IMG/VR virus record: IMGVR_UViG_3300000059_000050
Location: 1 to 7,294 of that record
Source: a virus
Taxonomy: Duplodnaviria; Heunggongvirae; Uroviricota; Caudoviricetes
Reading direction: 5' to 3' (one strand)
DNA length: 7,294 nucleotides
Below are positions 503 to 5,032 of this stretch, piece after piece. A program made the translations under genes and the position numbers. Within the stretch, counting starts at the first letter, position 1. Every line of letters starts with the position of its first letter. Under the pieces are notes generated by a model, which saw nothing but the letters and a program-made list of their open reading frames with translations, was not told the origin of the DNA and did not search any database.

Positions 503-533
503 GAAAAAACAAAACCCGCCGAAGCGGGTTTTC
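503..533 (-). terminator. Rho-independent terminator, bidirectional, ending the antitoxin-Doc transcript
   Basis: Perfect hairpin AAAACCCGC-CGAA-GCGGGTTTT at 511-532. On the minus strand it reads CCCGC-UUCG-GCGGG followed by UUUUGUUUUUU, 14 nt past the Doc stop. On the plus strand it is followed by TTTTCATT. Confidence 0.65.
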
Positions 534-546
534 ATTAGAAGCGCCT

Positions 547-1032
547 TTAGTTTTGCTGTTCTATTTTAAGCTTGATAGTTTCATACAAAACAATAGTTGC
601 GCCTGTTTTACATAATTCCCGGCTGTCATACGCGCGAGACCAATAACACAACCAGTTCTCGAGATCTTCTCGAGTATAGGTTTTGCAGGCCAGTCCCTTT
701 GCCATTTCCACGATTTCATCGCCTGGTGCTGTTAACTCATAGCCATTCAACAACAAGAAGACGTAACCAGCCATCATAGCTGTTCGTTTGTTCGCATTAG
801 CAAACGGATGATTCTGAATCAGACTTTCAATCAATACCGATGCCAGTACAAACATGTCATTAGTCTGTTCATACCATCGAACCATGCTGGGACGGGCCTG
901 AGAAGAACTTAAGTTATCTGGACTCAGGACACCAACGGGCTCATCTGGCGTCTGTAATTCAATTAGGGAACGATTGATTTCAACAAGATCATCAACCGTA
1001 AGGTAATGCACTCCTTCAACAATCTCAGCCAT
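547..1032 (-). CDS. Doc-family (death-on-curing, Fic/Doc fold) type II toxin, about 161 aa
   Basis: Translation contains HPFANANKRTA, matching the Doc signature H-x-F-x-(D/N)-A-N-K-R (P1 Doc has HIFNDANKRTA). Start taken at ATG 1030-1032 (MAEIVEGVHYL...); the track ORF begins at a TTG at 1041. Lies 18 nt downstream of a small ORF, the usual antitoxin-toxin layout. Confidence 0.8.
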   Translation of the reverse strand: MAEIVEGVHYLTVDDLVEINRSLIELQTPDEPVGVLSPDNLSSSQARPSMVRWYEQTNDMFVLASVLIESLIQNHPFANANKRTAMMAGYVFLLLNGYELTAPGDEIVEMAKGLACKTYTREDLENWLCYWSRAYDSRELCKTGATIVLYETIKLKIEQQN

Positions 1033-1050
1033 AGAGCACAATACCCATCA

Positions 1051-1230
1051 TTACACTTTTGAAAGTTCTTCCATGGCTTTCTCATAACGAGAAAAACCGA
1101 AATCAAAAGCATTTTTCACTTGTTCACGATGTGCGCAGTTTTCATCAATCGCTGGGCGAGGGACTGCCACAACGCTTTTATCGCGAGGCGGAATACTCAA
1201 CCGCGTGTGTTTTTTGATTGGGCAGCTCAT
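1051..1230 (-). CDS. Putative antitoxin partner of the Doc toxin, about 59 aa, family unassigned
   Basis: Small ORF directly upstream of the Doc gene on the same strand. ATG at 1228-1230 is preceded by AAGGA (MSCPIKKHTRLSIPPRDKSVVAVPRPAIDE...); the track ORF starts at a TTG 48 nt further upstream. I do not recognise it as Phd/YefM-like; the call rests on position and size. Confidence 0.5.
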   Translation of the reverse strand: MSCPIKKHTRLSIPPRDKSVVAVPRPAIDENCAHREQVKNAFDFGFSRYEKAMEELSKV

Positions 1231-1293
1231 ACTAATGAGTCCTTTTGTTTTCCGATTATTGGCAAAGCCATGCACCAAATTTGATACAAAATA

Positions 1294-1341
1294 GATCTGT
1301 TTGAGATCCTTAGGATAGTCTAATGGTAGCTAAAATTACAA
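1294..1341 (-). promoter_or_regulatory. Candidate promoter and operator of the antitoxin-Doc operon
   Basis: On the minus strand: TTGTAA (plus 1336-1341), 18-nt spacer, TATCCT (plus 1312-1317), then inverted repeat GATCT-gtttg-AGATC (1294-1308) near the predicted start site. Lies between the upstream terminator and the antitoxin start. Read by eye only. Confidence 0.25.
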
Positions 1342-1355
1342 CCTCATAATGCGAC

Positions 1356-1376
1356 GAAAAACCCGCCGAAGCGGGT
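1356..1376 (-). terminator. Rho-independent terminator downstream of hok
   Basis: Minus-strand RNA reads AACCCGC-UUCG-GCGGGUU followed by UUUUUCG. The 19-nt core AAAACCCGCCGAAGCGGGTT is identical to the hairpin at 511-531. Confidence 0.55.
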
Positions 1377-1447
1377 TAAGTGCGGGTGCGTTGAGGATGC
1401 CTGACACATCAGAGGTGGCGAGGGATTTCTCCCTCGCCTGGTCACTC

Positions 1448-1603
1448 TTACTTCTCAGATTCGTAGTCTACGAAGACAGCGACCTCCGTCTGGCCGGTTC
1501 GGATTCGTACCTCGCAGAGGTCTTTCCTCGTTACCAGTGCCGTCACTATGACGGTTAAACAGATGACGATCAGGGCGATTAACATCGCCTTTTGCTGCTT
1601 CAT
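1448..1603 (-). CDS. hok: Hok/Gef-family type I membrane toxin, 51 aa
   Basis: MKQQKAMLIALIVICLTVIVTALVTRKDLCEVRIRTGQTEVAVFVDYESEK is near-identical in pattern to chromosomal HokD/RelF-type Hok peptides as I recall them (TM helix, then RKxLCEVRxxxGxxEVAxF). ATG at 1601-1603 is preceded by AAGGAGAAG. The track ORF 1448..1660 is an in-frame extension from an ATG 57 nt upstream. Confidence 0.9.
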   Translation of the reverse strand: MKQQKAMLIALIVICLTVIVTALVTRKDLCEVRIRTGQTEVAVFVDYESEK

Positions 1604-2104
1604 AGCCTGCTTCTCCTTGACCTTTCGGTCCGTAAGAGGCAATCTATATGTGACGAGCATATAGGGGCCTCACTTCGATTTATAGTCGGGTGGGGCTTTT
1701 CTCTATCTGCCTTGCAGTGGCATGCCCGAGACAGATAGCCTCAAGCACCCGCAGCAATTCTAACTATCCAATACATCACTGCCAACACTTTAAACTCTCG
1801 CCCTTTAAAACAAGAACAAAATTCAACCAATCAGCATTGGACGCATACTCATATCCTAGAGAAAACGACTCTTTCTGTACTATCTACATCCATTTGATTT
1901 ATAAGCATTTGCCGCTTGCCATAGCCGCACAATGACAGTTTGCCATTTGATGTCAATAGATAAAAACGATCATTTTCAATGAGTTACATACTTGCAAGGC
2001 GTTGCACATCAGGCCCGATTGCATCAGTATCAAAAGATAACAGATGGTGCATTACTGCCACCTCGCCTTAATGTTCCAGAACTATTCAACTTGAGGAATT
2101 TTCA
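1604..2104. promoter_or_regulatory. AT-rich divergent intergenic region: expected hok leader and antisense control region, plus the promoter of the KilA-N gene
   Basis: About 500 bp with no convincing ORF and visibly lower GC than the flanks. Hok loci are known to carry long structured leaders and a short antisense RNA; here these are inferred from position, not seen. Several -35/-10-like hexamers are present but none could be assigned with confidence. Confidence 0.35.
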
Positions 2105-2918: not shown

Positions 2919-3002
2919 TCATCCCCATCGGCAAATCGAATACACAACCAGCGCCACCGCCATCGCAATTCCTGCCGTTGTGAATGCTTCAGGCCAGGTC
3001 AT
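2919..3002 (-). CDS. Possible 27-aa hydrophobic micro-peptide (MTWPEAFTTAGIAMAVALVVYSICRWG)
   Basis: Not in the ORF track (below its size cutoff). Its ATG overlaps the TGA of the upstream 191-aa gene as ATGA. One predicted TM-like segment. Ends 8 nt from the 2884-2908 hairpin. Could be chance. Confidence 0.25.
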   Translation of the reverse strand: MTWPEAFTTAGIAMAVALVVYSICRWG

Positions 3003-3574
3003 CGTAAAATATCCTCCGCGCTTATCAGTCCGTTTCGCTTCAGGTAGACCATCGCCTTCTCCGGTAATTTGCAGTTCGGCTTCGCTTTCCTCAATTGGCT
3101 AGCCAGTTGTTTAATCAGCATTGTTAATTCCCGTACCTGAACGTCCCCTTTGGTATCCTCATTGGTGAGGATACCATCGCCTTTCCCCTGAAGCATGGCG
3201 GCGCAGCAGGCGTTCCATGAGATTTCCTGAAGGGAGCGACGAATCTGTGTGCTGCATATACTCCTCCCTGACTCCTGGCTGTTAAACCATGTTTCAAATT
3301 CCGGCACTACCGTCGCTGGCGGGGCGGTGTAAAGTGGAACAACTCGCCCTCCCCATTGCTTAACACTACTCTCAGCGAACACTAAATGCTCAGCCCGATA
3401 ATACCCGGGGGCATCAATATCTTTTCTTTCGCTATCCCACATGTAAACCACCGGCTCTGCTTCCAGCGATGCCAAAGCAATCCGTGCCACTTCCATTTGT
3501 TCGCTACGAGTAAGCCCGTTTTCAAGCGGATTTTTAATGAACAATTCAATACGTTCTTTGGTGATAGCGTTCAT
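2999..3574 (-). CDS. Prophage early-region protein of unknown function, 191 aa; paralog of the 3578-4000 product
   Basis: AAGGAA lies 6 nt before the ATG. Shares RIALASLEAEPV and V(V/I)PLY-x-x-PPA motifs and a similar C-terminal helix with the adjacent 140-aa protein, with an inserted segment of about 60 aa. Confidence 0.7.
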   Translation of the reverse strand: MNAITKERIELFIKNPLENGLTRSEQMEVARIALASLEAEPVVYMWDSERKDIDAPGYYRAEHLVFAESSVKQWGGRVVPLYTAPPATVVPEFETWFNSQESGRSICSTQIRRSLQEISWNACCAAMLQGKGDGILTNEDTKGDVQVRELTMLIKQLASQLRKAKPNCKLPEKAMVYLKRNGLISAEDILR

Positions 3575-3577
3575 GTG

Positions 3578-4000
3578 TCATTCCTTAACCTGCAACTGCT
3601 TCTTAACCAGTTTACGTAGATGTGCCACAGCCATAGAAAGAGTTTCCACCGCTCGTTTATCCAGCTGTGGGGACAGAGACACCAGTTCGTTTATTGCGAT
3701 CTCAATGCCCTGTGCCTGCACTGTGGGAGCTGGCGGCACACGATACAGCGGAATTACACGACGCGGGTCTGCGTATTTATCTGGAGGACAAGGTAATAAA
3801 TAACCTAAACCAATTTGCTCAACATCTCGCAGTTCCTCGTCATCAGTCCATGCAACTGGTTCTGCTTCCAGCGATGCCAGCGCGATACGAAACACATTGG
3901 CAAGCAGGCTGCTTGAAGATTGGTTATCGTGCGCCGGGTCGCTCAGGAAACCAGTGATGAATGATTTAATTTCCGCGTTTTCTCTGGTAGTAGTGGTCAT
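3578..4000 (-). CDS. Prophage early-region protein of unknown function, 140 aa; paralog of the 2999-3574 product
   Basis: Start ATG overlaps the stop of the upstream gene (ATGA). Motifs RIALASLEAEPVAW and RVIPLYRVPPAPTV. Confidence 0.7.
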   Translation of the reverse strand: MTTTTRENAEIKSFITGFLSDPAHDNQSSSSLLANVFRIALASLEAEPVAWTDDEELRDVEQIGLGYLLPCPPDKYADPRRVIPLYRVPPAPTVQAQGIEIAINELVSLSPQLDKRAVETLSMAVAHLRKLVKKQLQVKE

Positions 4001-4206
4001 TTGTTAATCCTCAAAACTTTATGCCCGGGCGCAAAAGCACGTGTTTTGTCTTTACTTATTCGCCACCCGTCTTTACGGGCCTCTTTTGCACAACCAGACC
4101 ATGACGTACCGATATACTCACCGAAGTCTGGCACTGGATATACACCTTCCGTACACTGGCGGCAGTCACAATAGAGATGCATGGTGTAACTTGCGGCAAT
4201 AGCCAT
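3997..4206 (-). CDS. Small Cys-rich protein (C-x-C-x2-C ... C), putative zinc-binding, 69 aa; tandem paralog copy 1
   Basis: AAGGAGA lies 5 nt before the ATG. Near-identical to the 4817-5032 product (MxIAASYTMHLYCDCRQCT...GEYIGTSW.GCAKEARKDGWRIS.DKTRAFAPGHK). Four conserved Cys. Confidence 0.75.
   Translation of the reverse strand: MAIAASYTMHLYCDCRQCTEGVYPVPDFGEYIGTSWSGCAKEARKDGWRISKDKTRAFAPGHKVLRINK
4011..4206. repeat. Diverged direct repeat, copy 1 (about 196 bp; roughly 85-90% identical to 4837-5032 by eye)
   Basis: Aligned by eye without gaps to 4837-5032. Covers almost the whole Cys-rich gene; similarity continues into the upstream SD region. Confidence 0.8.
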
Positions 4207-4816: not shown

Positions 4817-5032
4817 TCACTCTCCTTTGTTGCTTCTCAAAATTTTATGCCCTGGCGCAAAAGCACGCGTTTTGTCGACGCTTATTCGCCACCCATCTTT
4901 ACGTGCCTCTTTTGCACAGCCAGCCCATGACGTACCGATATACTCACCAAAATCTGGCGACTGATATTTGCCATCCGTACACTGGCGGCAATCACAATAG
5001 AGATGCATGGTGTAACTTGCGGCAATACTCAT
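4817..5032 (-). CDS. Small Cys-rich protein, putative zinc-binding, 71 aa; tandem paralog copy 2
   Basis: GGAGG lies 4 nt before the ATG, which directly follows the TGA of the 119-aa gene. Same four-Cys pattern as the 3997-4206 product. Confidence 0.75.
   Translation of the reverse strand: MSIAASYTMHLYCDCRQCTDGKYQSPDFGEYIGTSWAGCAKEARKDGWRISVDKTRAFAPGHKILRSNKGE
4837..5032. repeat. Diverged direct repeat, copy 2
   Basis: Partner of 4011-4206, same orientation, 826 bp apart. Confidence 0.8.

What the first reader, a model, noticed from the sequence alone, without database searches (positions are those of the whole stretch)
547..1230. Doc toxin paired with an antitoxin candidate that does not look like Phd
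Doc toxins are classically neutralised by Phd/YefM-family antitoxins. The 59-aa upstream ORF (MSCPIKKHTRLSIPPRDKSVVAVPRPAIDENCAHREQVKNAFDFGFSRYEKAMEELSKV) does not show the Phd N-terminal pattern as far as I can tell by eye, so this may be a non-canonical pairing. Both track ORFs carry TTG-initiated extensions, so start-codon assignment also needs checking.
Basis: inference. Interest (0 to 1): 0.4.

Follow-up and report, generated by a model that had tools for sequence, protein, structure and literature searches.

The report
Phage Doc toxin with minimal antitoxin
A prophage carries a Doc toxin gene whose upstream 59-residue partner is not a Phd-type antitoxin but belongs to a small uncharacterised phage family, most likely a stripped-down antitoxin made of little more than one toxin-binding helix.

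Summary
On the minus strand, 547-1032 encodes a 161-aa Doc toxin (TIGR01550 at 2.5e-37, motif HPFANANKR). Eighteen bases upstream, 1051-1230 encodes the quoted 59-aa protein. Homologues support the ATG starts, not the TTG extensions.

The small protein matches no Phd/YefM, AbrB/MazE, RHH or other Pfam/NCBIfam/PDB profile. It falls in phrog_2208 (unknown function), and an exhaustive search found only 39 clusters of about 50-60 aa. It is a real gene (dN/dS 0.12). AlphaFold predicts one C-terminal helix (34-58) after an unstructured, Pro-rich N-terminus with a conserved IPxRD(K) motif.

It lies 2-18 nt upstream of a Doc gene in 13 of 14 genomes from other genera (a broken Doc in the fourteenth), in three isolated phages and in several metagenome contigs, at three different phage genome positions. 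In the window the pair is a discrete 847-bp insertion in the hokD terminator.

Best reading: a type II Doc module whose minimal antitoxin neutralises through a Phd-C-like helix. That similarity is weak (z about 3). No binding or rescue was tested.

Doc pairing with non-Phd antitoxins is already documented, so this is a new variant, not a new kind. Divergent orphan copies in Doc-less phages are the most interesting loose end.

The parts
547..1032 (-). Doc-family toxin gene, 161 aa from the ATG at 1032 (the TTG at 1041 would add 3 aa and is not conserved). Fic/Doc motif HPFANANKR at residues 75-83.
   Evidence: RefSeq WP_000818167.1 uses the same start.
1051..1230 (-). 59-aa candidate antitoxin (phrog_2208 family). 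Conserved IPxRD(K) motif at residues 13-18; predicted helix at residues 34-58.
   Evidence: RefSeq 'hypothetical protein' WP_001277774.1.
1240..1244 (-). Shine-Dalgarno-like AAGGA, 9 nt upstream of the ATG of the 59-aa ORF.
   Evidence: Sequence read directly. Nearly all homologous loci have a comparable purine-rich stretch.
1033..1050 (-). 18-nt spacer between the antitoxin stop and the Doc ATG (2-10 nt in intact homologues). Consistent with a bicistronic, possibly translationally coupled operon.
1312..1341 (-). Weak sigma-70-like promoter candidate, TTGTAA-18-TATCCT (8 of 12), with the -10 ending 81 nt upstream of the ATG. Followed by an imperfect inverted repeat GGATCT-N5-AGATCT at 1293-1309.
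   Evidence: Own scan and sequence. It is below the threshold of the standard scan. Many homologous loci have a better promoter match at a similar distance (60-82 nt).
511..532 (-). Intrinsic terminator (stem AAAACCCGC/GCGGGTTTT followed by GTTTTTTCTG) that ends the cassette. Also the left copy of the 20-bp direct repeat (511-530).
1358..1377 (-). Right copy of the 20-bp direct repeat AAAACCCGCCGAAGCGGGTT. This is the hokD terminator hairpin, here separated from its U-tract.
531..1377 (-). 847-bp two-gene cassette, present or absent as a unit relative to related prophages.
   Evidence: The empty site in E. coli Z247 (L003) joins window ~440-530 directly to 1378 onward. Many E. coli prophages match the window only from ~1354-1357 onward.

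Best explanation
The locus is a two-gene type II toxin-antitoxin cassette carried as a moron by a lambdoid prophage.

The downstream gene encodes a Doc kinase. By family knowledge it is expected to phosphorylate EF-Tu and stop translation.

The upstream 59-aa protein is its cognate antitoxin, from a small and so far unnamed family. It lacks any recognisable globular DNA-binding domain. It consists of a Pro-rich extended N-terminal segment with a conserved IPxRD(K) motif and one 25-residue amphipathic C-terminal helix.

The helix most likely lies in the Doc groove, as the C-terminal helix of Phd does ('Phd-C', fold complementation), and so keeps Doc inactive. The N-terminal motif adds a second contact with Doc or some other function; its role is unknown.

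Shown here: gene identity, purifying selection, start sites, conserved adjacency and cassette mobility. Inferred: binding, neutralisation, the mode of binding and the EF-Tu target.
For: Doc identity: TIGR01550 at 2.5e-37 and Fic at 7e-12. The motif H.F..[AG]NKR (the Doc-type consensus) is present in the downstream Doc gene of all 21 loci tabulated. The nearest solved relatives are E. faecalis and P1 Doc.

The small ORF is a real protein: dN/dS 0.12, with the helix at 0.07. The ATG is conserved in every homologous locus examined and most have a Shine-Dalgarno-like stretch.

The linkage is conserved. In 14 of 14 genome loci the small ORF sits directly upstream of Doc-homologous sequence: Kluyvera, Serratia, Citrobacter, Hafnia, Rosenbergiella, Providencia, Morganella, Yersinia, Xenorhabdus, Orbaceae. 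In 13 of them Doc is intact, with a 3-10 nt gap. The same holds in P. syringae prophage tail regions and metagenome contigs with a 2-3 nt gap. It also holds in Pseudomonas phages Sirocco and LPPA56 and Salmonella phage SW-37.

The pair therefore sits at three different phage genome positions: the nin region, the tail region, and next to the integrase or at the genome end.

The pair is one 847-bp indel.

In Providencia L009 the Doc is broken while the small ORF is intact, the usual decay order for TA pairs.

Structure: AlphaFold with 38 sequences predicts a single helix 34-58 with pLDDT above 90. The conserved hydrophobic stripe is V38, A41/F42, G45/F46, Y49, A52/M53, L56, V59. In an ungapped alignment anchored at the C-terminus it coincides with the Phd hot spots F56, I59/M60, H63, L67, L70 (PMC9207808). 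That offset scores best of 13 offsets, with z 2.9-3.4 against shuffles.

A Phd 52-73 peptide alone binds Doc at pM affinity and rescues growth (PMC9207808). Phd-C fused to SUMO neutralises a Doc (PMC10440598). A helix-only antitoxin is therefore mechanistically sufficient.
Against: No interaction, neutralisation or toxicity was tested.

The similarity to Phd-C is weak. It rests on two short sequences, one recalled from memory, and any amphipathic helix shares the periodicity. hhalign sees no relationship to Phd (probability 1%).

The Doc model itself was poor (pLDDT 59), and its best PDB match, 3dd7 Doc, was not significant (E 0.38).

Four divergent family members occur without an adjacent Doc, so the small protein is not strictly tied to a cis-encoded toxin.

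In AlphaFold models the N-terminal residues 11-20 have fairly high confidence (block mean pLDDT 85) yet no assigned function. An inverted repeat overlaps the promoter in Providencia/Morganella loci, which hints at DNA-level regulation that a helix-only protein would not obviously provide.
Confidence: 0.65

Rival explanations
1. The 59-aa protein is an autoregulating antitoxin that also binds DNA. On dimerisation, or within the Doc complex, the conserved N-terminal R-L-x-I-P-x-R-D-K segment forms a short beta-ribbon or arm that recognises an operator at the cassette promoter. It would then be a very reduced ribbon-type repressor joined to a neutralising helix. This refines the main explanation more than it excludes it.
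For: The N-terminal motif is nearly invariant across the family (I13, P14, R16) and is under purifying selection (dN/dS 0.22). Residues 11-20 have a block mean pLDDT of 85 despite having no secondary structure. Most loci have a promoter-like site 60-82 nt upstream. In Providencia/Morganella it is overlapped by the inverted repeat TAATG(T/A)AA-N6-TT(A/T)CATTA, and the window has an imperfect GGATCT-N5-AGATCT just downstream of the -10.
Against: There is no RHH, AbrB or Phd profile hit for any of the 38 members. No strand is predicted. Prolines immediately follow the putative strand, and there is only one helix, so no known ribbon-helix-helix core can form. The inverted repeats differ between lineages and are short enough to arise by chance.
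Confidence: 0.2
2. The small protein is not a classical antitoxin. It is primarily a phage-borne anti-Doc or regulatory factor that can act in trans. It would protect the phage, or its lysogen, from Doc toxins encoded elsewhere, or it would act as the sensor or adaptor of a Doc-based abortive-infection module.
For: Orphan family members without any Doc occur in four different phage-like contexts. These are L021/L022, between an endonuclease gene and the holin, with a terminator directly after the gene; L023/L024; L027; and L031. Outside bacterial chromosomes the family was found only in phage records; the sole 'plasmid' hit is a 4-Mb Proteus record.
Against: All closer relatives (at least 50% identity) are directly upstream of a Doc gene with 2-18 nt gaps, and the two move together. 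That is the signature of a cis-acting cognate pair. The orphans may simply be remnants after toxin loss.
Confidence: 0.1
3. The 59-aa protein is a highly diverged, truncated member of the Phd/YefM family, or of another named antitoxin family, that profile methods fail to recognise.
For: It has the same position and orientation as phd. There is weak C-terminal similarity to the Phd Doc-binding helix.
Against: The protein is about 14 residues shorter than P1 Phd. Its N-terminal 33 residues are Pro-rich and predicted unstructured, so the roughly 50-residue YefM/Phd fold cannot be accommodated. Tests gave hhalign probability 1%, no Pfam or NCBIfam hit at E<=10, and no PDB hit.
Confidence: 0.05

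Closest known systems
Phd-Doc of bacteriophage P1 (and Salmonella Phd-Doc)
   Same: The operon order is the same: a small antitoxin upstream and Doc downstream, carried by a temperate phage. The Doc motif HxFx(D/N)(A/G)NKR is shared. The antitoxin ends in an amphipathic helix whose hydrophobic positions line up with the Phd hot spots when the two are anchored at the C-terminus.
   Different: There is no YefM/Phd N-terminal DNA-binding and dimerisation domain. Instead there is a 33-residue Pro-rich segment with an IPxRD(K) motif. This Doc is 161 aa against 126 aa, with a conserved extra C-terminal stretch (W127, L128, W131, D136, L140, C141). Sequence similarity to P1 Doc is low (E 5e-5).
Enterococcus faecalis EFPhd-EFDoc (PDB 9VZC; PMC13034048)
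   Same: EFDoc is the closest solved Doc (E 4.6e-13). Its antitoxin likewise has no detectable sequence similarity to E. coli Phd, and it binds Doc with a bent C-terminal helix.
   Different: EFPhd is 79 aa, with a folded AbrB-like beta-dome DNA-binding domain at residues 1-55. The window protein has no room for such a domain and no predicted strands.
Panacea-Phd-C antitoxin of Corynebacterium doosanense Doc D6 (NetFlax; PMC10440598)
   Same: It shows that the Doc-neutralising 'Phd-C' helices are a portable linear element, sufficient for neutralisation when stabilised. The same paper notes that single-domain antitoxins consisting of the neutralisation element alone exist.
   Different: There the element is attached to a globular Panacea domain. 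Here it appears nearly alone, preceded only by a short conserved motif.
TasA-TasB (MazE-Doc composite system, Bacillus thuringiensis pGI1; PMC1626090)
   Same: It is another documented case of a Doc toxin paired with a non-Phd antitoxin.
   Different: That antitoxin has a MazE/AbrB domain. No member of the present family matches PF04014.
VbhA-VbhT class I Fic antitoxin (inhibitory helix with the (S/T)xxxE(G/N) motif; from my own knowledge)
   Same: A small helical protein encoded upstream of a Fic-fold toxin inhibits it by direct binding.
   Different: The (S/T)xxxE(G/N) motif is absent from the 59-aa sequence (read directly). The toxin has the Doc kinase motif, not the AMPylating Fic motif.

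Membership tests
Doc toxin (Fic/Doc superfamily, TIGR01550 DOC_P1) | Profile match above the curated cut-off | tested here: met
   TIGR01550 at 127.8 bits against a cut-off of 38.65. Pfam Fic at 46.5 bits against 24. phrog_577 at 4.8e-51.
Doc toxin (Fic/Doc superfamily, TIGR01550 DOC_P1) | Doc-type catalytic motif HxFx(D/N)(A/G)NKR | tested here: met
   HPFANANKR at residues 75-83. The pattern H.F..[AG]NKR is present in the Doc gene of all 21 loci tabulated.
Doc toxin (Fic/Doc superfamily, TIGR01550 DOC_P1) | Fic/Doc alpha-helical fold | tested here: inconclusive
   The AlphaFold model is all-helical but of low confidence (pLDDT 59). The best Foldseek PDB hit is Doc 3dd7, but at E 0.38.
Doc toxin (Fic/Doc superfamily, TIGR01550 DOC_P1) | Kinase activity on EF-Tu Thr382, and toxicity | not testable with these tools
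   Needs expression and phosphorylation assays.
Phd/YefM antitoxin (PF02604) | Profile or sequence match to the family | tested here: not met
   No Pfam or NCBIfam hit at E<=10 for the window protein, and no antitoxin family among the Pfam hits of the 38 members. hhalign against P1 Phd gives probability 1%. No PDB hit.
Phd/YefM antitoxin (PF02604) | N-terminal beta-alpha-alpha-beta-beta dimerisation and DNA-binding domain | tested here: not met
   AlphaFold (38 sequences, mean pLDDT 80) gives only helix 34-58 and no other element.
Phd/YefM antitoxin (PF02604) | C-terminal helix that binds the Doc groove | tested here: inconclusive
   A helix is predicted with pLDDT above 90. The C-anchored alignment to Phd 52-73 is the best of 13 offsets, z 2.9-3.4. 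No complex model or binding data are available.
AbrB/MazE/SpoVT antitoxins (PF04014) | Profile match and a swapped-hairpin beta domain | tested here: not met
   No hit among the 38 members. No strands are predicted.
Ribbon-helix-helix antitoxins (CopG/Arc/MetJ, RelB, ParD) | Profile match and a beta-alpha-alpha core | tested here: not met
   No hit. Only one helix is predicted, preceded by a Pro-rich stretch.
Type II toxin-antitoxin module (generic) | Small gene directly upstream of the toxin on the same strand, with a short or overlapping junction | tested here: met
   The gap is 18 nt in the window and 2-10 nt in intact homologues.
Type II toxin-antitoxin module (generic) | Pair conserved across taxa and genomic contexts, and mobile as a unit | tested here: met
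   14 of 14 genome loci, with Doc intact in 13. Pseudomonas prophages and phages. An 847-bp indel. Exception: four divergent orphan copies.
Type II toxin-antitoxin module (generic) | Antitoxin binds and neutralises the toxin, and the antitoxin is labile | not testable with these tools
   Needs co-expression rescue, pull-down and stability assays.
Type II toxin-antitoxin module (generic) | Autoregulation of the operon by the antitoxin or the complex | tested here: inconclusive
   Promoter-like sites and short inverted repeats lie upstream, but no DNA-binding domain is recognisable.
Class I Fic antitoxin (VbhA-like) | Inhibitory motif (S/T)xxxE(G/N) | tested here: not met
   The motif is absent from the 59-aa sequence and from the family consensus (sequence read directly).

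The most novel reading that the evidence does not exclude
The phrog_2208 family is a free-standing 'neutralisation-element-only' Doc inhibitor with no DNA-binding domain.

Its conserved IPxRD(K) segment would act as a pseudo-substrate or active-site plug. It can be compared with the EF-Tu target loop GGR-T382-VGAG, which I recalled from memory and did not test.

The divergent orphan copies in Doc-less phages would be trans-acting anti-Doc counter-defence proteins that let those phages infect hosts armed with Doc modules.
Probability: 0.12. Interest if true: 0.6.

Novelty: new variant of a known kind. Interest (0 to 1): 0.35.

Why it matters
It would add a defined antitoxin family to the Doc network. 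That family is currently annotated only as 'hypothetical protein' or phrog_2208, yet the cassette is in 125 of 5,426 complete E. coli genomes and in temperate phages of Enterobacterales and Pseudomonas.

It would be a natural example of an antitoxin reduced to little more than its toxin-binding helix. That raises the question of how such an operon is regulated, and how the antitoxin is turned over, without a DNA-binding domain.

The orphan copies in Doc-less phages offer a testable lead on phage counter-defence against Doc. The practical gain is better annotation of prophage morons.

The conceptual gain is modest, because partner swapping among type II antitoxins and the portability of Phd-C are already established.

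Tried and rejected
1. Zinc-site idea (C3, H8, C32, H34 in the window protein). Rejected: C3, H8 and C32 are not conserved even among close homologues (C3 to Y/H, C32 to H/Y/V/G); only H34 is nearly invariant.

2. Complex prediction from a linker fusion, and from translating the whole bicistron.

3. AlphaFold of Doc from 37 close homologues gave pLDDT 59. Foldseek against the PDB gave no significant hit, with the top hit Doc 3dd7 at E 0.38. The Doc assignment therefore rests on sequence profiles only.

4. The search for related loci with the divergent alignment A3 failed for lack of a conserved stretch. I used A1 instead.

5. The homologue search with Doc listed only close relatives, 63% identity or more to the query in my alignment of 36 of them. 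I could not trace intermediate Doc clades and their partners to ask whether the 59-aa protein derives from a longer antitoxin.

6. PDB profile searches with A1 and A3 returned only spurious hits, ribosomal protein S25 and TLE1.

7. A literature search for the RefSeq accessions and for phrog_2208 found nothing.

8. The standard promoter scan found no site in front of the small ORF. Only a weak 8-of-12 match emerged from my own scan.

9. The chance-ORF explanation is rejected by dN/dS.

Full report
**What is there.** The window is the nin-type early region of a lambdoid prophage closely related to E. coli prophages: DUF968, hokD/sok, KilA-N, Ea22-like, DUF1627 and similar genes.

On the minus strand, ORF 547..1041 (TTG, 164 aa) contains an ATG at 1032 that gives 161 aa.

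The 161-aa protein is a Doc. It matches NCBIfam TIGR01550 DOC_P1 at 2.5e-37 (127.8 bits, cut-off 38.65), Pfam Fic at 7e-12 and phrog_577 'Doc-like toxin' at 4.8e-51. It carries the Doc-type catalytic motif HPFANANKR at residues 75-83. Its nearest solved relatives are E. faecalis Doc 9VZC (4.6e-13) and P1 Doc (5e-5).

**Start codons.** Every homologous locus examined keeps the ATG of the 59-aa form, and nearly all have a purine-rich Shine-Dalgarno-like stretch a few bases upstream. The window has AAGGA at 1240-1244, 9 nt from the ATG. The sequences upstream of that point are unrelated between loci, so the TTG extension is not conserved.

Doc homologues begin MAEIVEG / MTEHVEG / MADIVEG, aligned with the ATG at 1032. 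RefSeq annotates the same two starts, as 486-nt and 180-nt CDSs with the small one called 'hypothetical protein'.

The junction between the two genes is 18 nt here and 2-10 nt in intact homologues. That fits one operon, possibly with translational coupling (inference).

**Is the small ORF real, and what family is it?** It is under purifying selection. Median pairwise dN/dS is 0.12 (dS about 1.4), with 0.07 for codons 34-59 and 0.22 for codons 1-33.

It has no hit at E<=10 in Pfam, NCBIfam or PADLOC. None of 38 family members hits any antitoxin family in Pfam. hhalign against P1 Phd gives probability 1%. Profile searches of all PDB sequences give only spurious hits. The one positive is phrog_2208, 'unknown function', at 3.4e-40.

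An exhaustive HMMER search of 1.84 billion representatives found only 39 clusters. Most are 47-62 aa, and the few longer ones mostly carry N-terminal extensions.

The family alignment shows two conserved blocks. One is an N-terminal (R/K)-(L/I/V)-x-I-P-x-R-D-(K) motif. The other is a C-terminal block, H-x-x-Q-V-x-N-A-F-x-x-x-F-x-R-Y-E-K-A-x-x-x-L-S-K-V. The cysteines of the E. coli version are not conserved, which rules out a zinc site.

AlphaFold with the 38-sequence alignment predicts a single helix at residues 34-58 (pLDDT above 90) and nothing else. Residues 11-20 are moderately confident (block mean 85) but have no regular structure. The protein therefore cannot contain a YefM/Phd, AbrB or RHH domain.

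**Is it the partner of Doc?** Genomic association is strong.

- In 14 of 14 loci recovered from one-genome-per-species contigs, Doc-homologous sequence lies directly downstream: Kluyvera, Serratia, Citrobacter, Hafnia, Rosenbergiella, Providencia, Morganella, Yersinia, Xenorhabdus and an Orbaceae. Doc is intact in 13, with gaps of 3-10 nt.
- More distant members (37-41% identity) in P. syringae prophages and in metagenome contigs have a Fic/Doc gene 2-3 nt downstream, there inserted among lambda-like tail genes.
- Pseudomonas phages Sirocco (P2-like, at the genome end) and LPPA56 (next to the integrase), and Salmonella phage SW-37, carry the same pair.

The pair thus recurs at three different positions in phage genomes.

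In the window itself the pair is a discrete 847-bp indel at 531-1377. It is bounded by a 20-bp direct repeat, AAAACCCGCCGAAGCGGGTT, at 511-530 and 1358-1377. A related E. coli prophage (L003) shows the empty site, with the flanks joined precisely through a single copy of the repeat. The repeat is the hokD terminator hairpin.

In Providencia L009 the Doc reading frame is broken while the small gene is intact. That order of decay is expected for a toxin-antitoxin pair.

**Mechanism.** By family knowledge, Doc phosphorylates EF-Tu Thr382 and arrests translation (Castro-Roa 2013, as cited in PMC10440598 and PMC9207808).

For neutralisation, three published results matter. Phd residues 52-73 alone bind Salmonella Doc with pM affinity and rescue growth, with hot spots F56, I59, M60, H63, L67 and L70 (PMC9207808). 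An isolated Phd-C element fused to SUMO neutralises a Doc (PMC10440598). E. faecalis 'Phd', which has no sequence similarity to E. coli Phd, also binds through a bent C-terminal helix (PMC13034048).

The conserved hydrophobic stripe of the family helix is V38, A41/F42, G45/F46, Y49, A52/M53, L56 and V59. It coincides with those hot spots in an ungapped alignment anchored at the C-terminus. That offset scores best of 13 tested for both Phd sequences, with z = 2.9 and 3.4 against shuffles.

This evidence is suggestive but weak. The sequences are short, the periodicity is that of any amphipathic helix, and the P1 sequence was recalled from memory.

I therefore propose, at about 0.65 confidence, a minimal antitoxin that neutralises Doc through a Phd-C-like helix.

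The role of the IPxRD(K) segment is open. It could be a second contact with Doc, a reduced DNA-binding arm, or a stability element. In favour of DNA-level control, most loci have a promoter-like site 60-82 nt upstream of the ATG. In Providencia/Morganella it is overlapped by an 8-bp-arm inverted repeat. In the window only a weak TTGTAA-18-TATCCT (1341-1312) and an imperfect GGATCT-N5-AGATCT (1309-1293) are seen, and the standard scan found nothing.

**Orphans.** Four divergent members have no Doc nearby.

- L021/L022: between an Endonuclease_1 gene and the holin, followed at once by a terminator.
- L023/L024 and L027: among small early genes. L027 carries a 121-aa form with an N-terminal extension.
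- L031: after a DUF6945 gene.

They may be remnants. Alternatively, and more interestingly, they may be trans-acting anti-Doc proteins of phages. This was not tested.

**Comparison and novelty.** Doc toxins paired with non-YefM antitoxins are documented: MazE-Doc TasAB (PMC1626090), the AbrB-like EFPhd (PMC13034048) and Panacea-Phd-C (PMC10440598). The NetFlax authors also note that antitoxins consisting of the neutralisation element alone exist.

What appears new is this particular family. It has no name, no Pfam model and no literature trace under its accessions. Outside bacterial chromosomes I found it only in phage records; the sole 'plasmid' hit is a 4-Mb Proteus record. It is widespread in Enterobacterales and Pseudomonas, and the cassette is present in 125 of 5,426 complete E. 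coli genomes.

I rate it a new variant of a known kind, with interest 0.35.

**Limits.** No complex model could be made. The Doc monomer model was poor. Intermediate Doc clades could not be sampled. All functional statements are inferences from family membership and gene context.

Noticed in passing
window 511-530 and 1358-1377 (cassette 531-1377); empty site at about L003:1930-2110: The doc cassette sits inside the hokD 3' terminator and is flanked by a perfect 20-bp direct repeat of the hairpin. The hok-proximal copy has lost its U-tract (TTTTTCGTCGC), while the distal copy keeps TTTTGTTTTTT. hok transcripts may therefore read through into the doc operon, and both modules would then share one terminator.
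   Followed up: partly
L021:3001-3165, L022:3001-3165, L023:3001-3198, L024:767-964, L027:277-642, L031:1036-1194: These are divergent members of the small-protein family (about 37-43% identity) in phage-like contigs with no Doc gene nearby. One (L027) has a roughly 65-residue N-terminal extension. They could be trans-acting anti-Doc proteins or remnants.
   Followed up: partly
L009:526-970 (Providencia sp. Me31A): The N-terminal part of Doc is interrupted by stop codons while the upstream 59-aa gene is intact. This looks like a decaying module that has kept its antitoxin.
   Followed up: no
L009, L010, L012, L013, L017: about 70-91 nt upstream of the small ORF: An inverted repeat TAATG(T/A)AA-N6-TT(A/T)CATTA overlaps the -10 of a TTGACT-17-CATTAT promoter-like site. 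It is a candidate operator, which is unexpected for an antitoxin with no recognisable DNA-binding domain.
   Followed up: no
window 1448-1750, minus strand: A complete hok/sok type I toxin-antitoxin locus lies immediately upstream of the doc cassette: a Hok-like 70-aa ORF at 1448-1660 (the RefSeq hokD CDS is shorter) and Rfam sok at 104.8 bits. Two addiction-type modules thus sit back to back in the nin region.
   Followed up: partly
window 3997-4206 and 4817-5032, minus strand; also 2999-3574 and 3578-4000: Two paralogous Cys-rich ORFs of about 70 aa (MAIAASYTMHLYCDCRQCTEG... and MSIAASYTMHLYCDCRQCTDG...) occur about 800 nt apart. There are also two adjacent ORFs that share the internal motif (R)IALASLEAEPV.
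   Followed up: no
window 547-1032, Doc residues 127-141: This Doc clade is about 35 residues longer than P1 Doc. It has a conserved extra C-terminal stretch (W127, L128, W131, D136, L140, C141 invariant in 37 sequences) beyond the TIGR01550 domain, followed by a variable tail. Its function is unknown.
   Followed up: no
antitoxin family N-terminus (alignment A3): Outside E. coli the first residues are strongly conserved as M-(G/S)-H-A-L-(K/R)-K. By loose analogy with N-terminal ClpX recognition motifs (recalled from memory), this could be a protease degron.
   Followed up: no
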